Assembly (NCBI GenBank): GCA_964634945.1
Contig: CAZWMG010000006.1
Location: forward strand, 736-64,735
Reading direction: 5' to 3'
From: an uncultured Planctomycetia bacterium
GTDB lineage: Bacteria; Omnitrophota; Gorgyraeia; JABMRG01
DNA: 64,000 nt
Positions 6,261-29,816 of this stretch are shown piece by piece. The notes beneath the pieces are model-generated. The model did not search any database, was not told where the DNA came from, and saw only the letters and a list, made by a program, of their open reading frames with translations. Each line of letters opens with the position of its first letter. The stretch's first letter is position 1. A program made the position numbers and the translations under genes.

Positions 6261-6512
6261 TTAAGCCTGAGCTACCTTATGCAGTAATTCTGATATAAAG
6301 GTTTGGTATTTGATACCGAACTTCTTTGCCTTTTGCCTTATGCTAGCAAGATCTCCACTATTAACACGGATGTTTAATACAGCATCTTTCTTACGAGCAG
6401 CCACAGATCTTGCAATTATATCAAACTCTTTTTTTGACACATTCACATACTCTTTTTTAAGCAAAGCGTCTTCAATCGCTTTTTCATTCTTAGCTAGCTT
6501 TATTTGTCTCAT
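6261..6512 (-). CDS. brnA: BrnA-like antitoxin (RHH/CopG-like) of a type II TA pair
   Basis: 83-aa protein that overlaps the upstream toxin gene by 4 nt (ATGA). 'KYQTFISELLHKVA' is a C-terminal RHH-like segment typical of BrnA/DUF4415. Confidence 0.55.
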   Translation of the reverse strand: MRQIKLAKNEKAIEDALLKKEYVNVSKKEFDIIARSVAARKKDAVLNIRVNSGDLASIRQKAKKFGIKYQTFISELLHKVAQA

Positions 6513-6769
6513 TTTAACTTGCCCTCCTTGTAAAGCTTGGTAAATTTTCTACTCGGGTATAAAGTTTTCAAAAATATACTATCTCTATCCTCAATGTATG
6601 GCACAATCCATATATATCTTTTATAATAAAAAAGTAGTATCCTCTGATTGGACCTCTTTGGATGTTTCTTAACCGCTATAAGCTTTGCACCAATCAATTC
6701 ATCAAAAGACACAGCACGTGCCTTTTTAAGTCGTTCACTTTTTAAAATACTCCACCTAATAGTCTTCAT
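6509..6769 (-). CDS. brnT: BrnT-like toxin (DUF497 ribonuclease) of a type II TA pair
   Basis: 86 aa. 'IRWSILKSERLKKARAVSFDELIGA' resembles the BrnT N-terminus (FEWDxxKNxxNxxKHGVSFEEA). Confidence 0.6.
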   Translation of the reverse strand: MKTIRWSILKSERLKKARAVSFDELIGAKLIAVKKHPKRSNQRILLFYYKRYIWIVPYIEDRDSIFLKTLYPSRKFTKLYKEGKLK

Positions 6770-6794
6770 AAAATAGTTTCAGTATGTATACATT

Positions 6795-6808
6795 ATTGTA
6801 TATACAAT
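6795..6808 (-). promoter_or_regulatory. palindromic operator candidate upstream of brnT
   Basis: 14-nt perfect palindrome 'attgtatatacaat' about 26 nt upstream of the brnT start. Typical position for a TA autoregulation site. Confidence 0.35.
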
Positions 6809-6844
6809 ATATCAAGATTTCACATATATGTCAAGGGAAAAATC

Positions 6845-6979
6845 TGAAAGTACTCGAAGGGCCTGCCCTACTCAAAAAGAGCGCGTGAAGACATAAGCCG
6901 CTCAAAAGGTTTTGATGAAATCATAGGTGTCTTAGATAAGCTGAAAAGCGATTATGCTATTAAGTGGCTAAAAAGGTAA
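6845..6979 (+). repeat. near-identical duplicate of the dus 3' end (with an internal deletion)
   Basis: 6859..6979 matches 6112..6232 (the last ~120 nt of dus including the stop) with a few mismatches, for example 'gggcctgccctactcaaaaagagcgcgtgaagacataag...'. Confidence 0.85.
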
Positions 6980-6982
6980 AAA

Positions 6983-7255
6983 TTACAAGATTTTCCTTGA
7001 AGCCTTCTTATAGATATCTCTTCTATGCCCAACGGTTAGAACGATGATCAAGATTTGCTGATGTAAGATCTTGTATATTATACGGTAATCTCCAGAGCGG
7101 TAAGAATGCAAACCAGAAAGCCTCTTTGTTAAGCATTTTCCTATCAAAGGGTCATGGGCAATGCGCTGTATCGCGTCTTTTACTTGGCGCTTCTTCTTAG
7201 CAGATAAGGTAGTTATATTGCCTGTAGCTTCTTTTGTGAATTTAACATTATACAT
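6983..7255 (-). CDS. RelE/ParE-family toxin
   Basis: 'YRIIYKI...IIVLTVGHRRDIYKK' is the typical RelE/ParE C-terminal region. The likely start (MYNVKF, 7255) overlaps the phd stop by 8 nt. Confidence 0.6.
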   Translation of the reverse strand: MYNVKFTKEATGNITTLSAKKKRQVKDAIQRIAHDPLIGKCLTKRLSGLHSYRSGDYRIIYKILHQQILIIVLTVGHRRDIYKKASRKIL

Positions 7256-7499
7256 CACCAAAAACTTCCTCAAATGTAAAAAGCCTGCCTTCTTTTATAT
7301 CTTTTTTAGCTTTTTGGATAGAGGCTAGCATATTCTTATCAGCCATAATTTCAAGCGTCTCCAGCTCTTCCGGAGAAAGCATAACAGCCTCTGCCCTGCC
7401 ATTTCTGGTGATAATCAAGTGTTTGCCAAAATGAGCTATTTTTTTAATCAACTCAGGCAATTTGCCTCTTGCTTCTGATATAGGAACTATATAATCCAT
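7248..7499 (-). CDS. Phd/YefM-family antitoxin
   Basis: 'MDYIVPISEARGKLPELIKKI...IITRNGRAEAVMLSPEELETLEI' is Phd/YefM-like. The ATG at 7499 is preceded by 'GGAGGTGAGGCAA'. Confidence 0.65.
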   Translation of the reverse strand: MDYIVPISEARGKLPELIKKIAHFGKHLIITRNGRAEAVMLSPEELETLEIMADKNMLASIQKAKKDIKEGRLFTFEEVFGDV

Positions 7500-7520
7500 T
7501 TGCCTCACCTCCAAAGTAAT

Positions 7521-7543
7521 TGTACAATATTTTGTACAATATG
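7521..7543 (-). promoter_or_regulatory. direct-repeat operator candidate upstream of phd
   Basis: 'tgtacaatat' occurs twice (7521-7530 and 7534-7543) immediately upstream of the phd RBS. Confidence 0.35.
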
Positions 7544-7574
7544 TCAATAGCTAGTATGAAATTCCTAAAATTTA

Positions 7575-8006
7575 TTATTGAAGTTTTGATGAGTGAGAAG
7601 TAGCGCGCGTTTTCTTAAAAAATAACCAGGTATTATCTTTACCATCTTTAGGGGTAAATTTTAATAGGCAATATTGGCCTGTTAATCTCTTGCCATGCAA
7701 GTCAAATACAATCTCTTTTTTATCTGCTTTTATTAGGCCATATGTGCCTTTGTCCCATATCTCTACTGTGCCCGCGCCATAATGGCCCTGCGGTATCTCC
7801 CCTTCAAAATCAGCATAATCCAATGCATGGTCCTCAACCTTAATAGCTAGTCGCCTTACACCTGGCACTACAGGCGGTTCTTTTGGTATAGCCCAGCTTT
7901 TTAAGGCCCTTTCTCTCTCAAGCCTAAAGTCGTAATGCAGATGTGAGGCATTATGCTTTTGTACAACAAATATAAGCTGTTTGCGCTGTTTTTGATTATT
8001 TTTCAT
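7575..8006 (-). CDS. stand-alone DNA ligase D 3'-phosphoesterase (PE) domain protein
   Basis: 'FVVQKHNASHLHYDFRLE...' matches the LigD PE domain signature (QxHxA..LHYDFRLE). Confidence 0.7.
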   Translation of the reverse strand: MKNNQKQRKQLIFVVQKHNASHLHYDFRLERERALKSWAIPKEPPVVPGVRRLAIKVEDHALDYADFEGEIPQGHYGAGTVEIWDKGTYGLIKADKKEIVFDLHGKRLTGQYCLLKFTPKDGKDNTWLFFKKTRATSHSSKLQ

Positions 8007-9346: not shown

Positions 9347-12300
9347 TTAGCTGCTTATAGCGAAACCTAAGTTTACCTTATTACGATTAGCGCGCCTTGT
9401 TACGGGACTTGTGTTGGGATATCCTAGCTTGCGCGCTACATTCATATTTTTAATAGGGATGTTTTCTACTGCTAATCTTTCAACGGCGCCTTTAAGCTCA
9501 TGAATAAATACGCTTCTCCTCGAAAGCACTCCCAATAAACTGAAATCTATCTTATGATATTTAGAGCGCCTTGTTAGCTCCTTTGATTCCTTATAGCCGA
9601 GTTTGTACGCTACATTGCATATGGTTGGCAGCTTATCTTCTTCGATTAATTCTTTAACAGCGCCTGCAACCTTATGTATAAATTTATCTCTGCTGAAAAC
9701 CACTAATCCTAATAAACTTAAATCTATACTATAATAATTCGCGAGCTTTGTTATAGGACCTGCTGTATCATAGCCTAGTTTGCGTGCTACGTTTCGCGTA
9801 ATAGGCAGTTCACCTTTGTCTGTTAATTCCTTAACAGCGCCTTCAACCTTATAAATAAAAACATCTCTACTTGTAAACAATCCTAGCAAGTTTAAGTCTA
9901 TACCATGATACTTGGCTAGTCTTGTCAAGGACCCTGTTTTCTCATAGCCTAGTTTGCGTGCTATATTTCGCGTAATAGGCAACTCTCCTTCTTCTATCAA
10001 TTCTTTAACAACACCTTTAATCTTTTGTATAGTCTTATCTCTACTGCCGCTGGAAGAAGCCTTAACAGCCCCATTAAGGGCCTTTAAAACTTCAGGATGC
10101 GCGCTTAAATACTCTTTTACTCTTGCGTCATAATCAGCCTCTTTTGCTTTTTGCATAGTAAGTTCTTCCTGCCATTTAGGTTCAATGGTTTTACCAGGAA
10201 AAGCCTTCTCAAGCCATTGAATCTGGTGCTTTGCACACCATCCATGTGAAATGTTACTTGGTATCTTTATTTCTGTTACCTCGTACGCCTTGCCGCATGT
10301 AGCGCACATTGAAACCTTAATATTTTTCCCTTTGATATACTTCTCAACTATGGGCTCAACGATGTCTCTGCTGCCTATAAAACCATGCGTTAATAAGAGT
10401 ATTTGGAATAGATGGTCATTGTTCAGGATATCCTCATCCTCTTTTATATCTAAATTAAGGGTATCGATATCACCTGCCTCATCACCATGGTAAAATGCTA
10501 ACAATGCATCCGCTATCTTAAAGTAACGTTGAAGCTTAGTATCTGCCGCAATAATAGGGCTAATAGTAGGCACTTTGCCTAAATAGATATTGCCTGTATT
10601 GCCATCTATTGTTATGGTATCGCCATTTTCGATCCTACAGGGTTTGCCAGTATTATCTGTATACACAATACCGCTGTCATCACGTGCAAAATTAGCGCCA
10701 GCACGAAGAGTTACAGCCGGTTTTATAATATCTGCTGTTCCCATTTTTTCTCTGGCTAATTCCGCGATATGGTTAATCAATGAATCTTCCTTTGTAATAA
10801 AGCCCACGGGCCAGTACATGTCAATCTGGCTGTGAAAAAATGATGAGCCCATAGCCGCAATAGGGTTATCATACTTATCAAATAAAAATCTATCGGGGTT
10901 CTCACGCACAATTAACCTTCCTGTTACAACACCCGGAGAAAGCGGAAATCCCCTTAAAACAGGCTCTATGTCACAATTAGGGCTTACTACAGGCGATTTG
11001 AGTAAGGAGATAAAATGATCTATCCGTTCCGACTCCTTTAAAACGCTTCCGCTCTCTTCGTAATCAATACTAAGAATATCTCTTGTAGCTATATCTGAAT
11101 AGCTTATCTTATCAGCAACTTCACGATACGTCAGAGTACCATTGATTCCCATATCGATCGCGTAATGGACCAGGGCCACAGGATGTACAAGAGCAGATCT
11201 TTGTTGAAGAATATACAATTTACCGCCTTCAATAGTAAATTCAATATTTCTAATATCATTGTAAACTGTCTCTAATTTCCTAGCATTCTTTTTAATAGCG
11301 GCTAATTGTGCCGGGAACATCTTTTCAAAAGTCTCTTTATAAAATATTACCTGTCCGCTTGAAGGCGTTACAACCGCAGGCCCTTGTGACTTATGAGCCA
11401 TTTCAATGTATACGCTGTTCTCGCCTGTTATCGGGTGCCTTGAAGCGGCAATACCGGTGCATGAGTTGTTATTGAGATTACCAAAAACCATCGCCTGCAC
11501 AGTAAAAGCTATATATGTGCTATCTCCTAGCATTTTTTTACTGTGCAAAAGCCGAGCTTGTTTTGAAAGATCTCCCATATCACCTTCTTGATATTTTTTG
11601 AAAGCTTCTACCGCAAGCGCTAACTGCTGCCATGGGTCCTCAGGGAATTCTATATTGTGCTTGTCTAATAGATATTTTTTTAGCTTACTAATAGTTTCCT
11701 TGTATACCAACTTCTTAGGCACCCCGTCTTTACTTATCAGTTCAAAGCCTACAAAATGGTGCGCATTATCATATTTTCTAATAAAGTTATTTTTATATAT
11801 CTCTAATATGTCATAATCCAAAGTATTGATAATGTCAACACCCAACACAGCCTCACTATAAAAGCATAAATACATTAAATACATATTGTACAATTCAACC
11901 TTATCTTCGAACCGCTTCTCCAAGGCCTTGACTGTCTCGTCATTTAAACCTATATTGAGCAATGTGGACAATTTCCCGGGCTCAACAAATGGATATCCTG
12001 CCCTGATTGAAAGAAATAGCGGTTTTTTAGCATCCCCGAAATAGCGCTCTTTTCCTGATAAAGCTTTCATCCGCTTTTCTATCTCACCTACCGCACGGCG
12101 CAATGATGCACGATCATTTGATAGAGTTCTAATCTCATCTGATGTAATTTCAGAATCGATAACAAATCCCGGAGGAACAGGCATATTCTCCAAGGCTAGT
12201 CGCATTAGGCCTGAGCCCTTATCACTCAATAGGATTTTATTCTCAGGATTGCCGTCCGCATAGCCGGGCCAAAAAAAGTGCAGGTGAGCAATGTCAGGCG

Positions 12301-12487
12301 ATAGTCGCACATCAGCTTGTAAGTGAGTATCTCTATCCGCCTCAGCCATGGCCCCTAAAATACCAGACGATGCCTGTGGTCTCAGCGCATCTATTTTTGA
12401 CTTTTTTATCTCTGCAAAGAGACAGCCTTGCCCCACACCATTGAAGGCAAATGCAACTACTATTATAAATATAATTATACTTTTCAT
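9347..12487 (-). CDS. signal-anchored PPDK/PEP-synthase-like ATP-grasp protein with a PEP-utilizer swivel domain, a Cys/His-rich module and four C-terminal tandem ~60-aa repeats
   Basis: The N-terminal hydrophobic segment is followed by 'PVPPGFVI...PLFLSIRAGYP...LLNIGLNDETV' and 'TGIAASRHPITGENSVYIE...IEFTIEGGKLYILQQRSA', matching the PPDK_N / PEP-synthase nucleotide-binding domain. 'GFPLSPGVVTGRLIV...DSLINHIAELAREKMG...IENGDTITIDGNTGNIY' resembles the phospho-His mobile domain. Next comes 'KNIKVSMCATCGKAYEV...SHGWCAKH', then four repeats of 'ELPITRNIARKLGY...T..AKYH.IDL.LLG'. Confidence 0.6.
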   Translation of the reverse strand: MKSIIIFIIVVAFAFNGVGQGCLFAEIKKSKIDALRPQASSGILGAMAEADRDTHLQADVRLSPDIAHLHFFWPGYADGNPENKILLSDKGSGLMRLALENMPVPPGFVIDSEITSDEIRTLSNDRASLRRAVGEIEKRMKALSGKERYFGDAKKPLFLSIRAGYPFVEPGKLSTLLNIGLNDETVKALEKRFEDKVELYNMYLMYLCFYSEAVLGVDIINTLDYDILEIYKNNFIRKYDNAHHFVGFELISKDGVPKKLVYKETISKLKKYLLDKHNIEFPEDPWQQLALAVEAFKKYQEGDMGDLSKQARLLHSKKMLGDSTYIAFTVQAMVFGNLNNNSCTGIAASRHPITGENSVYIEMAHKSQGPAVVTPSSGQVIFYKETFEKMFPAQLAAIKKNARKLETVYNDIRNIEFTIEGGKLYILQQRSALVHPVALVHYAIDMGINGTLTYREVADKISYSDIATRDILSIDYEESGSVLKESERIDHFISLLKSPVVSPNCDIEPVLRGFPLSPGVVTGRLIVRENPDRFLFDKYDNPIAAMGSSFFHSQIDMYWPVGFITKEDSLINHIAELAREKMGTADIIKPAVTLRAGANFARDDSGIVYTDNTGKPCRIENGDTITIDGNTGNIYLGKVPTISPIIAADTKLQRYFKIADALLAFYHGDEAGDIDTLNLDIKEDEDILNNDHLFQILLLTHGFIGSRDIVEPIVEKYIKGKNIKVSMCATCGKAYEVTEIKIPSNISHGWCAKHQIQWLEKAFPGKTIEPKWQEELTMQKAKEADYDARVKEYLSAHPEVLKALNGAVKASSSGSRDKTIQKIKGVVKELIEEGELPITRNIARKLGYEKTGSLTRLAKYHGIDLNLLGLFTSRDVFIYKVEGAVKELTDKGELPITRNVARKLGYDTAGPITKLANYYSIDLSLLGLVVFSRDKFIHKVAGAVKELIEEDKLPTICNVAYKLGYKESKELTRRSKYHKIDFSLLGVLSRRSVFIHELKGAVERLAVENIPIKNMNVARKLGYPNTSPVTRRANRNKVNLGFAISS

Positions 12488-12509: not shown

Positions 12510-15500
12510 TTAAGCGGCGCTTTGAATTGCTTTTCTTATATATGATACAGAGAGGTTTCTAGAATGCGTAATTAAACGCTCTGAGATCACAGGATGCATT
12601 TTTAGGTACTCTGCCACTCTCTCACCAACTTTAGCTTCTCTGGCTTCCTGCGCCCTAATACGTTTCAAGCGGGCAGGCCCATCTTGCTTGCTATAATCAT
12701 AGCGTTCAATGATGTTGCCTGCATCTTTAATACATTTTCCATGCGAAATACCACTTGGACCTTCGTATTTTCGCACTGCGTATATCCTGCCACATGTAGC
12801 GCACATTGATACCGTTATGTTTTTATCCTTGATATACCTTTTTACTATTTTTTCAACCAGAGCTTTATTATTTATAAGATAATACGTTAATAAGCGCATC
12901 TGAAATAGGTGGTCTTCCGTACTAATATTTACATCATTGAATATTCTCTCTAATTCTCTAGTACTGTTTTCAGGGGTCTTGTTACCCGAAGAAGAGGTTT
13001 TCTCCGTAACCGGTAAAACAGCAGTTGCAGTACCCGGGCGTATTGGAGCAAGATAACCGTTTATCCTGTTATCCTGATCCAGTCTGCGTTTCATGATAAC
13101 CTGCAATGAGCGCGCCAGAGAACTCACACCGCCAGTCTCTTTAAGTTCCGCATCGAGTAATTTTATGAATTCATCCGTGTGCATTCTTAACAAAACGCTC
13201 TTTTGCGATGCCACAACTGTCTTGCTTCTTGGAAGCTGTTTCGAATCATTGAATAATGACATAAACCTATCACGCATATCTTTATCCATATCCAAGCTCT
13301 TTATCTCTGAAATATCCATTACATTCCATATATAATAACCAGCACCTGCTATAAACTGCTGGCTTATCATGTCCTTCCTAAAAAGAGCCTTTAAATCATC
13401 TTCTGTATATAAGCTTAACGCTCTTCTAAGAATAGCCATCTCACCCAATACATGCCCCTTTCCTAATGTCTTTATACCATTCGGCATATCCGCGATACCT
13501 TCAATATTTACTTTTCCGCTTAATATTATATATACATATGGATTATCGATAGTAAGGTCTCCTTCTCTGTAGATTATATGCCCCCCTCTCATCTCCTCTA
13601 TACTACCTATAGTTGCAAACTGCTTTCTGATTAGATCCCCAAAAATAATATTTTCAGCAGTGGTCTCTATAACTGTTGACTCTTTCAGCAGGTTATCAGC
13701 CCTCACTATACTCTTACGCCTGTCAGCTCTCTTTATAACCCTCAATGATTCAAAGACCTGTGCCCTTTGGAGCCCAGGTTCATTCTGCTGGCCTGCCGAG
13801 TGGACAGTATGCACAGCACCAATATTAGCAAGCTCCTTAAACGCATCGATTAATTCCTCAGGCTCTATATGTACACCTGGCACACCATTTTCAGATATGA
13901 GAAGGTCAACACCATTTTCATAAAACTCAATAAACTTCTGCCTTAATGGGCTCTCTTTTGAAGGCATCAGAGAATCTGGTAAATAAGCGAAAATGCCTTT
14001 TTCAGTTGATATCCTAAACCCATACGTTGGCAGAGGGTGACCGAATGTTCTATTAAGAAGCATCTCCATCCCAGCAAAGAGTGACAGCGTATCATTAAAG
14101 AGAACAACTTCTCTATCCGCATCCTTTTCTGTCTTAACCAAAGGAAAGATCTTTTCAAAATCATATCTACTTATACCTGTTAAGGTGTTTAGATATTCAA
14201 ACGCTGTCTCGTAAACCGGGATAGCCGCTATCAGAGGCATTGAGCCTAATTGTCCACCATTAGCCTTTTTCAATAGTTGTTGGTAAGCAAAATCTGCCAT
14301 CCCGCCAAAGTGGTCCCAATGAACATGCGAAAGATAGAAGGCGTCAACATTATCTAAGAGTTCATTAGCCCTTATATTGCGCAAGGTCTGCGCTGAGGGG
14401 TCAACTAGAATGCCCTTGCCATTAATCGCCATTAATAAATTTGTATAATCCTGCTTACCACTAAAAGGCGTGGGATCCGCGTTACCAAAAGGCATTATTA
14501 CTAATTCATCCCTATCCTTTTCAGAGAGCTTAAACGCTTCCTCAACCATGTTGACTTGTCTTGGCGTCCATGATGAATAAAATTGATTTTCCCCGCGTGA
14601 GGCAAGGCACGCTCTGTCAATATAGTAGGCATGCGCACCCTCTCCCTCAGTGACGATAAGGCTATCTTCTGTTTTTTCTATTCTTAACGTATTAGCAGGC
14701 GTTTCCGATGAAGGCAAGCCCTTACTTAATGCAATACTGTCGCCAAGCGCCAAGACCCGAATATCGATTATTTCGTTAATTAATTTTTCTACGGCCTCGT
14801 CGTCTTTAAAAGATATATTGCCCTCTCTATTAAATAGCCCTCCGGGAAAATGAAACGACCTGTTACGGGCAAACTCCTTTGAAAGCATCTTAGCTATATC
14901 AACACTGTAACCGCTATCTATTAATTTTGCTTCATAAAATCCTGCATCATGACCAATAAAAAAAGACTTGAGCAATCTAAGAGTTTTTTTCTTCTTTATT
15001 TCTGAATCCACTACAACAGTAATTCTACCGCTTATTAACCCCTTAACAAGTACGTCTACATCATAGCCTGCATCCATAACCTCATATTTAAAAGTATCTA
15101 TCTCATCTACTTTACGCTGGTAACTCGAATAATCCTTTTCTAATGCCTTTAAATCATTGAGGAGTGCTGCATATCTTGCTGAATACCCCTTAATGATGGG
15201 ATCAAAAAACATTCTTTGAAAAAATAATCCTTCCAACACACTGCTGTTAACAAGGGGATCAAACGCCAAAAAAACAACATCGGGTTGCTCCTTAGCCTTG
15301 AGGAAGGTGTGAGAATTTTGCCTGTCATAAGCTGAAAATGATAGCGTAAATGAGCGATTGCCGTTTACATCGCCTTTTGTAGTAAGGGTAAAGTTATCCA
15401 ACAAATCAGTGCCTGAATTATCAGGATTCAACTTGTCTTGACCCGGATAAGATGCGCGCGGATTCTTAAAAACCCTTGTTTCTAAGACATCGTAAGCTTT

Positions 15501-16451
15501 TCTTAAATCCGCTCTATTATCTGTGGCCTCTTTAAACTCTTGATTCAACAGCACAAAAGCGGAATAAGCATCAGTGAAATATTTAGTCGGCGTAACTCCT
15601 AGTATCTTAATATTGCTATCTAATGAAGGGGCCTTGTCAATATATAAGTTAAGAACGCCAAAAAATATTCCTGTTTTTTTAGCGAATTTCTTTAAGTGGC
15701 CTCCTTTAAAAATTAAGTCCGCGGACCACTTAATCATCATCGCGTATGAGAGATAAGCTATGAGCTGTGGAAGTGTTGCAAATGAGGCAAACAAAGGTAA
15801 GATCGTATATGCCACAATAACAGCTGCTGCAGATAATATAATGCCCGCGCCTAAAAATGGGAGAAGTTCCCATCTACTGTTATATATTGCATTCTTTGTC
15901 TCTCTGCTTACAGAATGCGCCACTCTCTTGCCTATCGCATGTATAAAAGCGACTGGCAGATCAATTAAGCTGATCTTATTGTATATGGTAATTGTATCAG
16001 TAAACTTAAGGTATGATACCGGCAGATTCCTTGTAACTAAATTATCCGCAAATACAATCCTTATGCCCTGAATATGCTCTTTGGGTAATTTTTTTAATAA
16101 ATATATTAGAAGCGAAAGTCGGACAATAGAAAGACTGTTCGGATTATACATTATGATATTATTGTTCTCTAAGAAATCTTTGATAGTATCCGTATCTAAT
16201 AGGCTAAATTCAAGCCTTGTAGATAAGAGATCTTTAGCAATAAATTGACGCATGCCTTTTTCAAGCATCGCCTGTATTGTATAATTTTGAGGTATCGCCT
16301 TCTTAACAGGCTTGTAGCCCTGAGCATGAGTATTATCTGAAACTGAGAGCTTGTGAGAAGCTGGGCGCAGAGCAAATAAGTCAGGTGGTATACTGGCCAT
16401 AATGAGTGAAATAACCAGAAAAATTGATAAAACCCTGTAGAACTCTTTCAT
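12510..16451 (-). CDS. giant (1313-aa) membrane-anchored multidomain protein with an MBL-fold domain, a cNMP-binding-like domain and a C-terminal Cys/His-rich module
   Basis: N-terminal signal/anchor plus an internal TM pair ('LPFLGAGIILSAAAVIVAYTILPLF...'). 'AFYLSHVHWDHFGG' is the metallo-beta-lactamase HxHxDH motif. 'YVYIILSGKVNIE...GKGHVLGEMAIL' is CAP_ED (cNMP-binding)-like. The C-terminal 'KNITVSMCATCGRIYAV...SHGKCIKD' is paralogous to the module in the neighbouring gene. Confidence 0.55.
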   Translation of the reverse strand: MKEFYRVLSIFLVISLIMASIPPDLFALRPASHKLSVSDNTHAQGYKPVKKAIPQNYTIQAMLEKGMRQFIAKDLLSTRLEFSLLDTDTIKDFLENNNIIMYNPNSLSIVRLSLLIYLLKKLPKEHIQGIRIVFADNLVTRNLPVSYLKFTDTITIYNKISLIDLPVAFIHAIGKRVAHSVSRETKNAIYNSRWELLPFLGAGIILSAAAVIVAYTILPLFASFATLPQLIAYLSYAMMIKWSADLIFKGGHLKKFAKKTGIFFGVLNLYIDKAPSLDSNIKILGVTPTKYFTDAYSAFVLLNQEFKEATDNRADLRKAYDVLETRVFKNPRASYPGQDKLNPDNSGTDLLDNFTLTTKGDVNGNRSFTLSFSAYDRQNSHTFLKAKEQPDVVFLAFDPLVNSSVLEGLFFQRMFFDPIIKGYSARYAALLNDLKALEKDYSSYQRKVDEIDTFKYEVMDAGYDVDVLVKGLISGRITVVVDSEIKKKKTLRLLKSFFIGHDAGFYEAKLIDSGYSVDIAKMLSKEFARNRSFHFPGGLFNREGNISFKDDEAVEKLINEIIDIRVLALGDSIALSKGLPSSETPANTLRIEKTEDSLIVTEGEGAHAYYIDRACLASRGENQFYSSWTPRQVNMVEEAFKLSEKDRDELVIMPFGNADPTPFSGKQDYTNLLMAINGKGILVDPSAQTLRNIRANELLDNVDAFYLSHVHWDHFGGMADFAYQQLLKKANGGQLGSMPLIAAIPVYETAFEYLNTLTGISRYDFEKIFPLVKTEKDADREVVLFNDTLSLFAGMEMLLNRTFGHPLPTYGFRISTEKGIFAYLPDSLMPSKESPLRQKFIEFYENGVDLLISENGVPGVHIEPEELIDAFKELANIGAVHTVHSAGQQNEPGLQRAQVFESLRVIKRADRRKSIVRADNLLKESTVIETTAENIIFGDLIRKQFATIGSIEEMRGGHIIYREGDLTIDNPYVYIILSGKVNIEGIADMPNGIKTLGKGHVLGEMAILRRALSLYTEDDLKALFRKDMISQQFIAGAGYYIWNVMDISEIKSLDMDKDMRDRFMSLFNDSKQLPRSKTVVASQKSVLLRMHTDEFIKLLDAELKETGGVSSLARSLQVIMKRRLDQDNRINGYLAPIRPGTATAVLPVTEKTSSSGNKTPENSTRELERIFNDVNISTEDHLFQMRLLTYYLINNKALVEKIVKRYIKDKNITVSMCATCGRIYAVRKYEGPSGISHGKCIKDAGNIIERYDYSKQDGPARLKRIRAQEAREAKVGERVAEYLKMHPVISERLITHSRNLSVSYIRKAIQSAA

Positions 16452-27049: not shown

Positions 27050-29574
27050 TTATCTGACCCTAATAATAGGGACAGGTTTCGCGTTTACAGTAGCGGTGAA
27101 AGAAGATATATCACTACTGCACTCTGTACCGGAACCATCGTCTACCGTAAGAACGATTTTGTATCTCCCGGGTTTGGTATATACATGAGAGACGCTTGCG
27201 CCTTCACTGCCTGTATCGTCTCCAAAATCCCATGTATAAGTAAGTATATCTCCATCCGGATCATAGGAATTAGAGCCATCAAATCTCGATATTGTGTCTA
27301 CGCAGCAGGCAAGGCTTAGCCCTGCGTCAGCTACCGGTGGGGTATTAACCCTAATACTAACCGTATCGACGGATGTAGAACATTCATAATCACGGCCATC
27401 ATCAACTGTAAGCTTTACAGTATAGGTGCCGCCTTTCTTATAGGTATGGCGTATGCTGGAGCGGCCAAACTGCGTTGAACCATCTCCAAGATCCCAAAAG
27501 TACTGCAATGAATCACCATCAGGATCATTAGAATCAGAGCCGTCAATTGTTATCGATTTATTGATACAGACGATGCGTGGCGCATCGATATTAGCGATAG
27601 GCGCTGTATTTACATCAGCAATAACAGTCGCTATCGCCTCTGAACACCTGGTATTTCTATTATCATTTACAGTAAGTCTTGGATAATATCTTCCGCCTTT
27701 TTGGTAGGCGTGTGTTGTCTTTACCCCCTTGCCCGTTGTGCCGTCTCCAAAATCCCATATGTAGCTTAGTGACTCACCATCCTCTGTTATGGATTCTGAG
27801 CCATCAAATACGACATCATCGCCAACGCATATCTTCGAATCTCTTGTCTGTATTGATGGTGATGGTGTCTTATTCAGATCTACGCTTACAGAATCAACAG
27901 ACACACTACAAGCTGAGCCTGAACCGTCATCTACGGTTAACGTTGCTGTATAAGTACCGGGCTTTTCATATATATGCGTAACTCTCTTGCCTTCTTTGAA
28001 TGTTCCGTCACCTAGATCCCATGAATAGGTAAGCTTATCTTTATCAGCGTCATACGAACCTGAGCCGTCAAAAGTAACCTTATAAGACTCTTGGTAATCT
28101 TCCAGACAGATATCAACATCGCCTCCGGCATCAGCTATAGGCGCAGTATTTACGCGTATCTTCTGCTGAATAGTATCTGTACTGCATGTTGAATCTTCAT
28201 TATCATCAACAGTCAGGCTTATCTTATATAGGCCTCCTTTTTCATATATCTTAGTCACACGCACACCTTCAACCTTGGCCCCATCACCTAGGTCCCAGTA
28301 ATAGCTTAGATCGCTTGATGAATCATCCTGGGTTTCGCTCGCGTCAAATACTATTTTATCGCCAACACATAAACTTTCTGGATAACTAAACGCTGCCTTT
28401 GGAGGTGTGTTTACCTTGATAGTCTGAGTAGTCGTCGCTGTGTCACATTCAAGGCCTGAATTATCCGTAACTGTCAACGTAACGGTATAGGTTCCGCCAT
28501 CTTCATAGAGATGAGTAACAACGGGTTCTGTACTTGTTTCACCGTCTCCAAAAGACCAGTCGAACGATAATTTCTGATTATCTACATCATAGGAATCTGT
28601 CGCGTCAAATGTGAATTTATTACATGTAATATCCTTTACAGGCTTTAGGACCGCCTTGACAACAGCCGGCATCGGCTTACCCTTGATAACCGGTATCGGC
28701 GCGTCACCTTTTGTAAAATATATAGGAAGTATATTACCTTTATCATCATATACTTTTATACCCGCATGCGCGTACTTTTGGGTACCTTTTGTTATGACAT
28801 ACTTGAGCCTTCCACCTGTCATCGCGTTTACAGGGATCTCGGTCTTTCTCCATTCACCTGTTAGGGAGTCAGCTACATTGTACTCCTTTTTGGTCTCTCC
28901 AAAAAGTATGTCACGTCCGGCGAAGATCTCACTTGTGCCGCCTTTCGCGTCCAAATCATAATTTTCAAGCACAATATATTCAGTATCAGCTGAGACCTGG
29001 GGATAAAAATACATCTTATCTCCCTTATGGCTCAATAGCCTTATGGTTATGTCTTCACTAAAGCATTCAGCGCTCTCCGGTAAGATCCTGAATCTAAATA
29101 GATTCGCGTCATCACCCGTAAGGCCCTTTACAACTACCTTGAAACGATAAGCGTTTTCCATCTCTTCACCCTGAGACTTACTATAAGGGCCAAACATGTA
29201 AAAGGCCCTGTTATATTCACCTGATCCAAATTCTCTACTCGCGATCAGATCATCTCCATAGATAGAAAACTCTGTAACCGTATCCCAGGCATTGTTAGAG
29301 TCTGTCCTGAAATCTTTATGGCTTCCTGTATCAGGGTCATATACCTCAATAGTAAGATCCGAGGCCTCTCTCTTTGGAACATCAATAAATAATGTAAATT
29401 CATTATCTTCCGCGCCCAGAAGCGGGTCTCCTTCCGCCCCAAATACATAAAAGTATTTTGCTTTTGATCTATCTTCAGGAATATCCTTCGCTACCGAGCT
29501 ATTTACAGCAACTAAAGATAAAGAAGATATAAAAATAACAACTCCACATAAAACTTTTTTAAACATTTTCAAAA
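27050..29574 (-). CDS. secreted protein with multiple PKD repeats
   Basis: At least six repeats of the type 'F[DS].S.S.D.DG..L.Y.WDFGDG....G....H.Y...G.Y.V.LTV.D'. The preferred start MFKKVL at 29574 is preceded by 'AGGAGG'. Confidence 0.7.
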
Positions 29575-29816
29575 CCTCCTGTATAGTTACGTTTATAAAA
29601 ACCATTTGATTATTTTTAAAAGATTTGAACATCATGCAGTATATTATATCTGCGTGATTTTGTCAACCAATACTTTATAATTTTTAATATATTTACACAG
29701 AAACCATAGCTTAGCGATATTGCGGATTTATTACGCGTATAATGAGCAGATAAGGCCTGATGACTTTCTGCTAAATAGAGTATCTGCATACATTCTGTCT
29801 TTTAATAGGCGCGCTC

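What the first reader, a model, noticed from the sequence alone, without database searches (positions are those of the whole stretch)
9350..10090. Four tandem ~60-aa repeats with an HTH-like core at the C-terminus of the PPDK-like protein
The consensus 'K.GAVKEL.E.GELPITRNVARKLGY..TG.LTRLAKYH.IDL.LLG...SRD.FI' repeats four times, with decay in the last copy. The repeats are also visible at the DNA level (recurrent 'cgcgtaataggca..tcacc' and 'agcctagtttgcgtgctac'). The 'ITRN.ARKLGY' core resembles a helix-turn-helix. A membrane-tethered enzyme fused to repeated HTH-like units is odd. The repeats could bind nucleic acid, a polymer or a partner protein.
Basis: seen in the sequence. Interest (0 to 1): 0.55.

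Follow-up and report, generated by a model that had tools for sequence, protein, structure and literature searches.

The report
Tandem HTH-type repeats on truncated dikinase
The last 232 residues of a dikinase-like protein from an uncultured Omnitrophota bacterium are four copies of a small helix-turn-helix-type domain that no domain library lists; this domain occurs in arrays of 3 to 11 copies on large proteins of two little-known phyla and probably tethers the enzyme to DNA or another repeated target.

Summary
ORF 9347-12487 (-) ends in four contiguous units of 57-59 aa (window 9350-10045). Pairwise alignment scores are 14-38 SD above shuffles, and the repeat is visible in the DNA (period 174).

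The unit is a helix-turn-helix (HTH) superfamily domain. AlphaFold gives H1-H2-turn-H3-short H4 per unit (pLDDT 87). The unit profile matches sigma-28 region 3 in the PDB (E 1.7e-6) and aligns with AraC-type/TniQ-associated HTH repeats (hhalign 96.6%). No Pfam, NCBIfam or PHROG family is matched at threshold.

A profile search of 1.84 billion proteins found about ten true relatives. All that could be assigned are from Omnitrophota or Elusimicrobiota. They carry 3-11 tandem units on large, mostly leader-bearing proteins with varied enzyme partners.

The host is a Candidatus Orphnella relative. Its orthologues carry 3 or 4 units, and all share a distinct terminal unit. The last copy is therefore a conserved cap, not decay.

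The enzyme keeps the ATP-grasp and phospho-histidine parts of pyruvate phosphate dikinase but lacks the PEP/pyruvate barrel. The array sits in the C-terminal region where that barrel would be.

Best reading: a multivalent targeting module, most likely for nucleic acid. The ligand and the cellular location are not shown.

The parts
9347..12487 (-). Whole gene (1046 aa plus stop): leader, PPDK-like core, Zn-ribbon-like module, SSSG linker, four HTH-type units
   Evidence: ORF list. The identical protein is present in four Logan assemblies. Orthologues P0002 and P0053 are from Candidatus Orphnella occulta.
12416..12487 (-). N-terminal hydrophobic leader (aa 1-24, MKSIIIFIIVVAFAFNGVGQGCLF). It is either a signal peptide or a membrane anchor.
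   Evidence: Kyte-Doolittle scan; this is the only hydrophobic segment in the protein. Its nature was not resolved.
12377..12388 (-). 'ALRP' motif (aa 34-37) just after the leader, shared with the upstream ORF
   Evidence: Only these two ORFs in the window have it. It is also present in P0002 and in the O. occulta counterpart of ORF2; P0053 has the variant 'TLRP'.
10505..12262 (-). PPDK-like core (aa 76-661): ATP-grasp nucleotide-binding domain plus phospho-histidine swivel domain. The PEP/pyruvate TIM barrel is absent.
   Evidence: TIGR01828 E 9.5e-64, profile positions 7-525 of 865, 215.7 bits against a cutoff of 843. PPDK_N 4e-14. Canonical PPDKs are about 30% identical and all carry PF02896, which this protein lacks.
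10751..10774 (-). 'NHIAELAR' (aa 572-579), the counterpart of the PPDK catalytic-histidine motif (His573)
   Evidence: Read from the sequence. Conserved in P0002 and P0053. The assignment as the catalytic histidine is an inference from established PPDK knowledge.
10076..10447 (-). Zn-ribbon-like module (aa 681-804, CxxC...HGxC), inserted between the enzyme core and the array
   Evidence: 44% identical (E 6e-34) to the C-terminus of the upstream ORF. Absent from orthologues P0002 and P0053.
10046..10057 (-). 'SSSG' junction (aa 811-814) directly before unit 1
   Evidence: The same motif sits at module junctions in ORF2, P0002, P0053 and the O. occulta large protein.
9872..10045 (-). Unit 1 (aa 815-872). 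H1 816-832, H2 839-845, H3 851-860, H4 865-868.
9695..9871 (-). Unit 2 (aa 873-931)
9521..9694 (-). Unit 3 (aa 932-989)
9350..9520 (-). Unit 4 (aa 990-1046), the conserved terminal variant ending in '...NLGFAISS'
   Evidence: 60% identical to the terminal unit of P0002 and to P0008, against 33-41% to other units. P0053 ends in a closely matching unit.
12510..16451 (-). Upstream, probably co-transcribed partner gene (1313 aa): leader with ALRP, TM segments, MBL fold, cNMP-binding domain, and the same Zn-ribbon-like module at its C-terminus (about 12573-12944)
   Evidence: The gene pair and its order are conserved in Ca. O. occulta. The gap to the dikinase-like gene is 22 nt, and no terminator-like site lies in it.

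Best explanation
The C-terminal 232 residues are an array of four copies of a roughly 56-aa domain of the helix-turn-helix (HTH) superfamily. Each unit has a long first helix, a beta-bridge, a second helix, a turn, a third helix and a short 'IDLxxLG' tail. The domain is not in current domain libraries. It forms its own small family, found so far only in Omnitrophota and Elusimicrobiota. There, 3-11 tandem copies are attached to large proteins, most of which begin with a leader, and the enzyme partners differ from protein to protein.

In this protein the array (plus an inserted Zn-ribbon-like module) occupies the C-terminal region where canonical PPDK has its PEP/pyruvate-binding barrel. The most likely role (inferred) is a multivalent targeting or acceptor-binding module. 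It would hold the ATP-grasp and phospho-histidine swivel core on a polymeric or repeated ligand, each unit adding one weak contact so that avidity grows with copy number. The most likely ligand (also inferred) is nucleic acid, probably double-stranded DNA, contacted by H3 and by the basic face of H1.

Shown: the repeat, its fold class, the family and its distribution, its conservation, and the loss of the PEP/pyruvate domain. Inferred: the ligand, the avidity mechanism and the cellular compartment.
For: Repeat.

Fold: the AlphaFold model built on an 18-array alignment has pLDDT 87.3, with H1(17 aa)-H2(7)-H3(10)-H4(4) in every unit and a beta-bridge between the residue before H2 and the residue after H4.

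HTH homology:
- The unit profile against PDB sequences hits sigma-28 region 3 (1rp3, E 1.7e-6) and SigF (5e-3), followed by AraC, RpoN, Cro, IS629 OrfA, RacA and TnsD.
- hhalign against AraC-type/TniQ-associated repeats gives 96.6% probability, E 6.5e-10, over H1-H2-turn-H3.
- Single units give only sub-threshold hits, and almost all of these are to HTH families (KfrA_N 10 of 48, HTH_Tnp_1 9, HTH_23 5, Sigma70_r3 5, HTH_3 4).
- In relatives, summed scores pass Pfam cutoffs for HTH_Tnp_1, HTH_28, LexA_DNA_bind and MerR_1.

Family: 15 hits among 1.84 billion representatives, about ten of them true array proteins. Genomic members are in Omnitrophica and Elusimicrobia MAGs.

Selection: dN/dS between units 1-3 is 0.2-0.5. 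The terminal unit is orthologous across relatives. Copy number is 3 or 4 among Orphnella relatives.

Targeting-module reading: partners differ between proteins. They include a PPDK-like core (this protein), an unknown ~700-aa module, a CheR methyltransferase and an SNF2 helicase; P0004 has no recognisable partner at all.

Nucleic-acid reading: the window array has net charge +16 and pI 9.8, and most arrays have pI 8.7-10.4. K/R is enriched at H1 positions 8, 12 and 15 and at H3 positions 45-46, and S/T at the start of H3. One carrier also has an SNF2 helicase.
Against: No binding experiment exists. HTH folds also serve protein-protein contacts.

Some family members have near-neutral arrays (P0011 pI 7.7) and many acidic units (P0004, L011), which argues against purely electrostatic DNA binding.

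Most carriers start with a signal-peptide-like segment. If it is cleaved after export, the array would be outside the cytoplasm, away from the chromosome.

Neighbouring genes of family members share no theme.

pTM is 0.53, so the relative arrangement of the units is uncertain.
Confidence: 0.5

Rival explanations
1. The array is a protein-protein docking or scaffolding device. Each HTH-like unit binds a partner protein or another unit, assembling or positioning large multi-enzyme proteins, and does not touch nucleic acid.
For: Sigma region 3, the best PDB sequence match, also contacts RNA polymerase core (established knowledge). Unit 1 gives a weak hit of its 'AKYHGIDL' stretch to the E3-binding peripheral-subunit domain, a protein-docking module (E 0.034). 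The most conserved polar residues (N47, D50) lie in the tail rather than on the exposed face of H3. Several arrays are neutral or contain acidic units. Omnitrophota long proteins often carry docking or scaffold repeats (10.64898/2026.06.07.730766).
Against: No partner is conserved in the neighbourhoods. The E3_binding hit is marginal and not shared across the family. The window subfamily is strongly basic and has an R/K/N/T/Y-rich H3.
Confidence: 0.25
2. The protein is exported, and the basic C-terminal repeats anchor it to an envelope or extracellular polymer such as peptidoglycan or polysaccharide. They would act like SLH, Cpl-7 or PG_binding repeats without being related to them.
For: Signal-peptide-like N-termini are found in the window protein, P0002, P0053, P0003, P0004, P0011 and L018. 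The array is C-terminal, with 3-11 copies of about 60 aa and basic pI. A DUF481 outer-membrane protein gene lies immediately downstream. About 94% of long Omnitrophota proteins carry a signal peptide or TM segment.
Against: No match to any cell-wall-binding family in Pfam or NCBIfam. The fold class is HTH. The fused enzymes are of cytoplasmic type and need ATP or SAM (PPDK-like, CheR, SNF2).
Confidence: 0.15
3. The repeats are a recent, functionless tandem duplication, or an assembly artefact.
For: The repeat is visible at the DNA level, and copy number differs between close relatives.
Against: Nucleotide identity between units is only 53-72%, synonymous sites are near saturation, and dN/dS is 0.2-0.6 for most pairs. 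The identical protein is present in four independent assemblies. Orthologues keep the array and its special terminal unit. The family spans two phyla.
Confidence: 0.02

Closest known systems
AraC/XylS-type HTH units (Pfam HTH_18) repeated in TniQ/TnsD-like and other proteins
   Same: The unit shares the pattern of long H1, 'PP(S/T)', H2 'xxVAxxLGY', turn and start of H3. hhalign gives 96.6% probability over 38 columns. These proteins also carry 3-10 tandem copies (P0007, P0012-P0015). TnsD appears among the weak PDB hits.
   Different: The second half of the unit ('WAxxNxIDLxxLGV') has no counterpart. HTH_18 does not appear among the window array's Pfam hits. The host proteins are enzymes with leaders, not transposition or transcription factors.
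Sigma-70 region 3 (Pfam Sigma70_r3; for example Aquifex sigma-28, PDB 1rp3)
   Same: This is the best sequence match in the PDB: 'RIKEVVEKLKEKLGREPTDEEVAKELGIS' aligns with the unit consensus 'IkkIkeAVkeLkeegkpptlsnVAkkLGls' (E 1.7e-6). Both are three-helix HTH-like domains with a long first helix.
   Different: It is a single copy in sigma factors, flanked by regions 2 and 4, which are absent here. Pfam Sigma70_r3 stays below threshold. Other sigma factors in the PDB score poorly.
KfrA_N and LexA_DNA_bind winged-helix DNA-binding domains
   Same: KfrA_N is the most frequent sub-threshold Pfam hit among units (10 of 48). The 'G-x-x-P-T...V...LG' spacing is shared, and the predicted beta-bridge is wing-like.
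   Different: No single unit reaches a family cutoff. No full beta-hairpin wing is predicted.
Multi-HTH DNA readers: MarA/Rob double HTH, Pipsqueak four-repeat Psq domain, TAL-effector arrays (functional analogues, recalled from the literature)
   Same: Tandem small helical units, each contributing one contact to a long ligand. Two consecutive units superpose weakly on MarA, AraC and YesN DNA-binding domains (Foldseek probability 0.4-0.9 but E > 0.4).
   Different: No significant structural or sequence match, and DNA binding is not shown here.
Alpha-glucan, water dikinase (plant GWD/PWD), an architectural analogue recalled from the literature
   Same: A PPDK-type ATP-binding domain and phospho-histidine domain, without the PEP/pyruvate barrel, fused to tandem polymer-binding modules that place the enzyme on a polymeric acceptor.
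   Different: The domain order is reversed and the binding modules are carbohydrate-binding (CBM45/CBM20), not HTH. No sequence relation beyond the PPDK core was tested.

Membership tests
Helix-turn-helix superfamily (fold class) | Three-helix core with a tight turn between helix 2 and helix 3 | tested here: met
   AlphaFold model, pLDDT 87.3. Every unit has H1(17 aa), H2(7), a 5-6-residue turn and H3(9-10).
Helix-turn-helix superfamily (fold class) | Profile-level sequence similarity to established HTH families | tested here: met
   PDB profile search: sigma-28 region 3 at E 1.7e-6. hhalign to AraC-type repeats: 96.6%, E 6.5e-10.
Helix-turn-helix superfamily (fold class) | Binds nucleic acid through helix 3 | not testable with these tools
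   Indirect evidence only: pI 9.8, and K/R/N/S/T enrichment on the exposed positions of H3.
Pfam Sigma70_r3 (PF04539) | Score at or above the gathering cutoff (25.3 bits) | tested here: not met
   Absent from the window protein's hits. 5 of 48 family units hit at E >= 0.0057. Whole-protein sums in relatives are 20.9-21.3 bits.
Pfam Sigma70_r3 (PF04539) | Occurs between sigma regions 2 and 4 in a sigma factor | tested here: not met
   The host protein has a PPDK-like core and no sigma regions.
Pfam HTH_18 / AraC family | Score at or above the gathering cutoff (33.6 bits) | tested here: not met
   Not among the hits of the window array or of the 48 units. Only the distant relatives P0007, P0012, P0015 and P0009 pass.
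Pyruvate, phosphate dikinase (TIGR01828 equivalog) | Full-length match above the cutoff (843 bits) | tested here: not met
   215.7 bits, covering profile positions 7-525 of 865 only.
Pyruvate, phosphate dikinase (TIGR01828 equivalog) | C-terminal PEP/pyruvate-binding TIM barrel (PF02896) | tested here: not met
   No PF02896 hit. Nearly all listed canonical homologues carry it; the few exceptions are short proteins.
Pyruvate, phosphate dikinase (TIGR01828 equivalog) | ATP-grasp nucleotide-binding domain and swivel domain with the catalytic histidine | tested here: met
   PPDK_N 4e-14. A weak PEP-utilizers match at aa 562-632. 'NHIAELAR' with His573 is conserved in the orthologues. The catalytic role itself is inferred.
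Cell-wall or envelope-binding repeats (SLH, LysM, PG_binding_1, Cpl-7/CW_7, SPOR) | Match to the family profile | tested here: not met
   None appears, even at E <= 1, in Pfam scans of the array or of the 48 units, nor in NCBIfam.
Known anti-phage defence proteins (PADLOC) | Match to a defence-system profile | tested here: not met
   No hit for the window protein. Relatives give only weak, unrelated hits.

The most novel reading that the evidence does not exclude
The protein is a polymer-directed dikinase. As in plant glucan-water dikinase, the pyruvate-binding barrel has been replaced by tandem polymer-binding modules, but here the modules are HTH units. The phospho-histidine swivel domain would then phosphorylate, or otherwise modify, nucleic acid or a nucleic-acid-bound target. 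If the leader is a true export signal, this would happen in a prey or host cell, making the HTH arrays of Omnitrophota and Elusimicrobiota a TAL-effector-like class of secreted DNA-targeting modules that carry different enzymes.
Probability: 0.1. Interest if true: 0.85.

Novelty: new variant of a known kind. Interest (0 to 1): 0.5.

Why it matters
The finding defines a domain family that current libraries miss, and gives a first handle on part of the unannotated sequence in the very long, leader-bearing multi-enzyme proteins typical of Omnitrophota and Elusimicrobiota. The same array is attached to a truncated dikinase, a CheR methyltransferase, an SNF2 helicase protein and an unknown 700-aa module. 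Finding its ligand would therefore show where a whole set of otherwise opaque enzymes act. If the ligand is DNA, arrays of up to 11 HTH units on proteins with export-type leaders would be an unusual way to target nucleic acid. They could bear on the proposed host-dependent or predatory lifestyle of these phyla.

Tried and rejected
- Word-indexed search with the array found only one fragment (P0001). With the 48-unit alignment it found nothing. The exhaustive profile search was needed.
- Single-sequence AlphaFold failed (pLDDT 39.5).
With the whole protein it found no relative in GTDB representative genomes.
- A hand-made degenerate DNA pattern for 'WAxxNx[IV]DLxxLG[VI]' did work. It cannot detect the window's own subfamily, which lacks the tryptophan. 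It found nothing in viral contigs.
- There are no stand-alone copies of the unit in the window.
- The ~700-aa partner module matched nothing in the PDB. In Pfam only one of four members gave a weak hit, to Methyltransf_25 (E 0.0034), so calling it a methyltransferase is not justified.
- Neighbourhoods of P0003, P0004 and P0005 gave no functional clue.
- PADLOC gave no defence-system assignment.
- Literature searches found no description of these repeats.
- The N-termini of the two large ORFs do not align by BLASTP, despite the shared ALRP motif.
- A resemblance to PG_binding_1 ('GxAVKELQ') was considered. It was rejected because the spacing to 'LGY' differs and there is no Pfam hit.
Full report
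**Observation.** The window carries a 1046-aa ORF on the minus strand (9347-12487). Its last 232 residues are four contiguous units of 58, 59, 58 and 57 aa: aa 815-872, 873-931, 932-989 and 990-1046, equal to window 10045-9350. Pairwise local alignment scores are 14-38 standard deviations above shuffled controls. tblastn of each unit against the window finds only the other three, and a family profile finds no other copy in any frame. Twelve columns are invariant.

**Selection on the copies.** Nucleotide identity between units is 53-72%, and synonymous sites are close to saturation. dN/dS is 0.2-0.5 among units 1-3. These are old duplicates under purifying selection. The fourth unit is only 33-37% identical to its neighbours. 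It is, however, 60% identical to the last unit of orthologue P0002 and to fragment P0008, and P0053 ends in the same kind of unit.

**Fold of the unit.**
- No Pfam, NCBIfam or PHROG family, and no PDB sequence, is matched at threshold by the array or by single units.
- A single-sequence AlphaFold run was useless (pLDDT 39.5). With an alignment of 18 four-unit arrays the model reached pLDDT 87.3 (pTM 0.53).
- Each unit is then predicted as a 17-residue helix, a 7-residue helix over 'TRNIARK', a turn, a 10-residue helix over 'GSLTRLAKY' and a 4-residue helix over 'LNLL'. A one-residue beta-bridge links the residue before H2 to the residue after H4. This is a three-helix HTH core with a vestigial wing.
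- A profile of 48 units searched against PDB sequences hits sigma-28 region 3 (1rp3, residues 98-134, E 1.7e-6) and SigF (5e-3). Weak hits follow to AraC, RpoN, Cro, IS629 OrfA, RacA and TnsD.
- hhalign against AraC-type repeats from TniQ-like proteins gives 96.6% probability (E 6.5e-10) over H1-H2-turn-H3.
- Single units give sub-threshold hits almost exclusively to HTH families. In longer arrays the summed scores cross Pfam cutoffs for HTH_Tnp_1, HTH_28, LexA_DNA_bind and MerR_1.
- Foldseek against the PDB gave nothing below E 0.1. The higher-probability weak hits are double-HTH proteins such as MarA, AraC and YesN.
- I conclude that the unit belongs to the HTH superfamily but to none of its catalogued families.

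**The family.** The word-indexed search found one fragment. An exhaustive profile search of 1.84 billion representatives found 15 proteins.
- About ten are true relatives, with consensus xxRIxxIKxAVxxLKxxGxxPTxxxVAxxLGxxxxSLxxWAxxNxIDLxxLGV and a period of 58-61 aa.
- The remainder are the more distant AraC-type repeat proteins.
- A degenerate DNA pattern for the conserved tail recovered further members in one Candidatus Omnitrophica MAG, two Elusimicrobiota MAGs and several metagenome contigs. It found none in viral contigs.
- Copy number ranges from 3 to 11.
- Partners differ between proteins: the PPDK-like core here; an uncharacterised ~700-aa module in P0003, P0005, P0006, L009, L018 and L025 (no convincing Pfam match and no PDB match); a CheR methyltransferase in L011; and an SNF2 helicase in L009. 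P0004 has only a leader and 11 units.
- Most carriers begin with a hydrophobic, signal-peptide-like segment, and some have further TM segments.
- Gene neighbourhoods of three members share nothing.

**Organism and orthologues.** EF-G, YchF and YajQ of the window fall in 90%-identity clusters with proteins of Candidatus Orphnella occulta, phylum Omnitrophota (described in PMC8542988). The PPDK-like part has only two close relatives besides itself, both from that species: P0002 (69% identity, four units) and P0053 (59% identity, three units). All other homologues are canonical PPDKs at about 30% identity, and the full-length ones carry the PEP/pyruvate barrel PF02896, which this protein lacks. 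The match to TIGR01828 covers profile positions 7-525 of 865 and scores 215.7 bits against a cutoff of 843. The motif 'NHIAELAR' (His573) aligns with the PPDK catalytic-histidine motif and is conserved. The enzyme is therefore an ATP-grasp plus phospho-histidine core without its usual acceptor-binding domain, and the array sits in the C-terminal region where that domain would be. Gene order is conserved in O. occulta: YajQ, PCMT, STAS, aldehyde dehydrogenase, a large MBL/cNMP-binding protein, then the dikinase-like gene 16 nt downstream. In the window the gap is 22 nt with no terminator-like site.

**Mechanism.** Shown: a conserved, selected array of HTH-fold units that is used modularly with unrelated enzymes. 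From this I infer a targeting function, with multivalent, avidity-based binding to a long or repeated ligand. I rank nucleic acid first as the ligand, for these reasons:
- the homology is to DNA-binding HTH families;
- the window array has net charge +16 and pI 9.8, and most arrays have pI 8.7-10.4;
- K/R is enriched on one face of H1 (positions 8, 12, 15) and on exposed H3 positions 45-46, and S/T at the H3 N-terminus;
- one carrier also contains an SNF2 helicase.

Against this reading: some arrays are neutral with acidic units; the leaders may export the proteins; and nothing was measured. I give the overall explanation 0.5. Within it, the fold and family part stands at about 0.85 and the nucleic-acid part at about 0.4-0.45. 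The rivals are protein docking (0.25), envelope-polymer anchoring (0.15) and a functionless duplication (0.02, effectively excluded).

**Comparison with known systems.** The nearest sequence relatives are AraC-type HTH repeats and sigma region 3. Membership of either Pfam family was tested and not met. The array works, by inference, like multi-HTH DNA readers (MarA, Psq, TnsD). The whole protein resembles glucan-water dikinase in architecture: a PPDK core without the barrel, fused to tandem polymer-binding modules. These last comparisons are recalled from the literature, not tested here. Papers on Omnitrophota long proteins list PPDK_N, methyltransferases and signal peptides as common features but do not mention HTH repeats.

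**Verdict.** This is a real, conserved and previously uncatalogued HTH-type repeat family of narrow taxonomic range, here fused to a truncated dikinase. I rate it a new variant of a known kind, with interest 0.5. Function is the open point.

Noticed in passing
window 10076-10447 (-) and 12573-12944 (-): A ~124-aa Zn-ribbon-like module ('DHLFQ...SMCATCG...SHGxC...EYLxxHP') is shared by the two adjacent large ORFs (44% identity, E 6e-34). It also ends the 1704-aa O. occulta counterpart of the upstream ORF, but is absent from orthologues P0002 and P0053 of the dikinase-like protein. The module appears to have moved between neighbouring genes.
   Followed up: partly
window 10046-10057 (-); ORF2 aa 1153-1156; also P0002, P0053, L029: The motif 'K[S/T/A]SSSG' sits exactly at module junctions in five related proteins. 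It could be a preferred linker, a recombination joint or a processing site.
   Followed up: no
window 12377-12388 (-) and about 16359-16370 (-): Both large ORFs have a leader made of a hydrophobic segment followed by '...LFA..ALRPxAS'. No other ORF of 100 aa or more in the window has it. The motif recurs in P0002 and the O. occulta large protein, P0053 has the variant 'TLRP', and P0005 has 'GIRPA'. It may be a lineage-specific sorting or cleavage signal.
   Followed up: partly
window 12510-16451 (-): The upstream 1313-aa protein combines TM segments, an MBL-fold domain with weak similarity to the anti-Pycsar Apyc1 cyclic-nucleotide phosphodiesterase, and a cNMP-binding domain. It may be a membrane-bound, cyclic-nucleotide-regulated hydrolase co-transcribed with the dikinase-like gene.
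   Followed up: partly
P0003, P0005, P0006; L009 aa ~1000-1690; L018; L025: A conserved ~700-aa module ('FSPGGIQNAG...DEFGNRPHW...ILDVGAN...') precedes the HTH arrays in six proteins. It has no PDB match, and in Pfam only one of four members gives a weak hit, to Methyltransf_25 (E 0.0034).
   Followed up: partly
P0053 compared with window 9350-10045: Array copy number differs among close Orphnella relatives: 3 units in P0053, 4 in the window protein and P0002. Internal units are not one-to-one orthologous, but the terminal unit is.
   Followed up: yes
L018 926-7138 (-); L009 (whole 8-kb locus); L011 1-4758 (+): Other carriers are very large mosaic proteins. L018 has a leader, a Tat-like 'RRGFL' motif, a long unknown region, the 700-aa module, 6 units and a receiver-like C-terminus. 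L009 has an SNF2 helicase, TM segments, the module, 7 units and more TM segments. L011 has 9 units, a TM segment and a CheR domain.
   Followed up: partly
window 6261-8006 (-): This stretch holds small addiction-type genes and a stand-alone LigD_N phosphoesterase. PhdYefM/ParE at 6983-7547 and LigD_N at 7575-8006 were assigned by precomputed Pfam hits on the identical Logan contig. A second small overlapping pair at 6261-6769 looks like another toxin-antitoxin pair but was not tested.
   Followed up: no
window 27050-29635 (-): An 861-aa protein with at least six PKD domains (PKD_4 2.7e-137).
   Followed up: no
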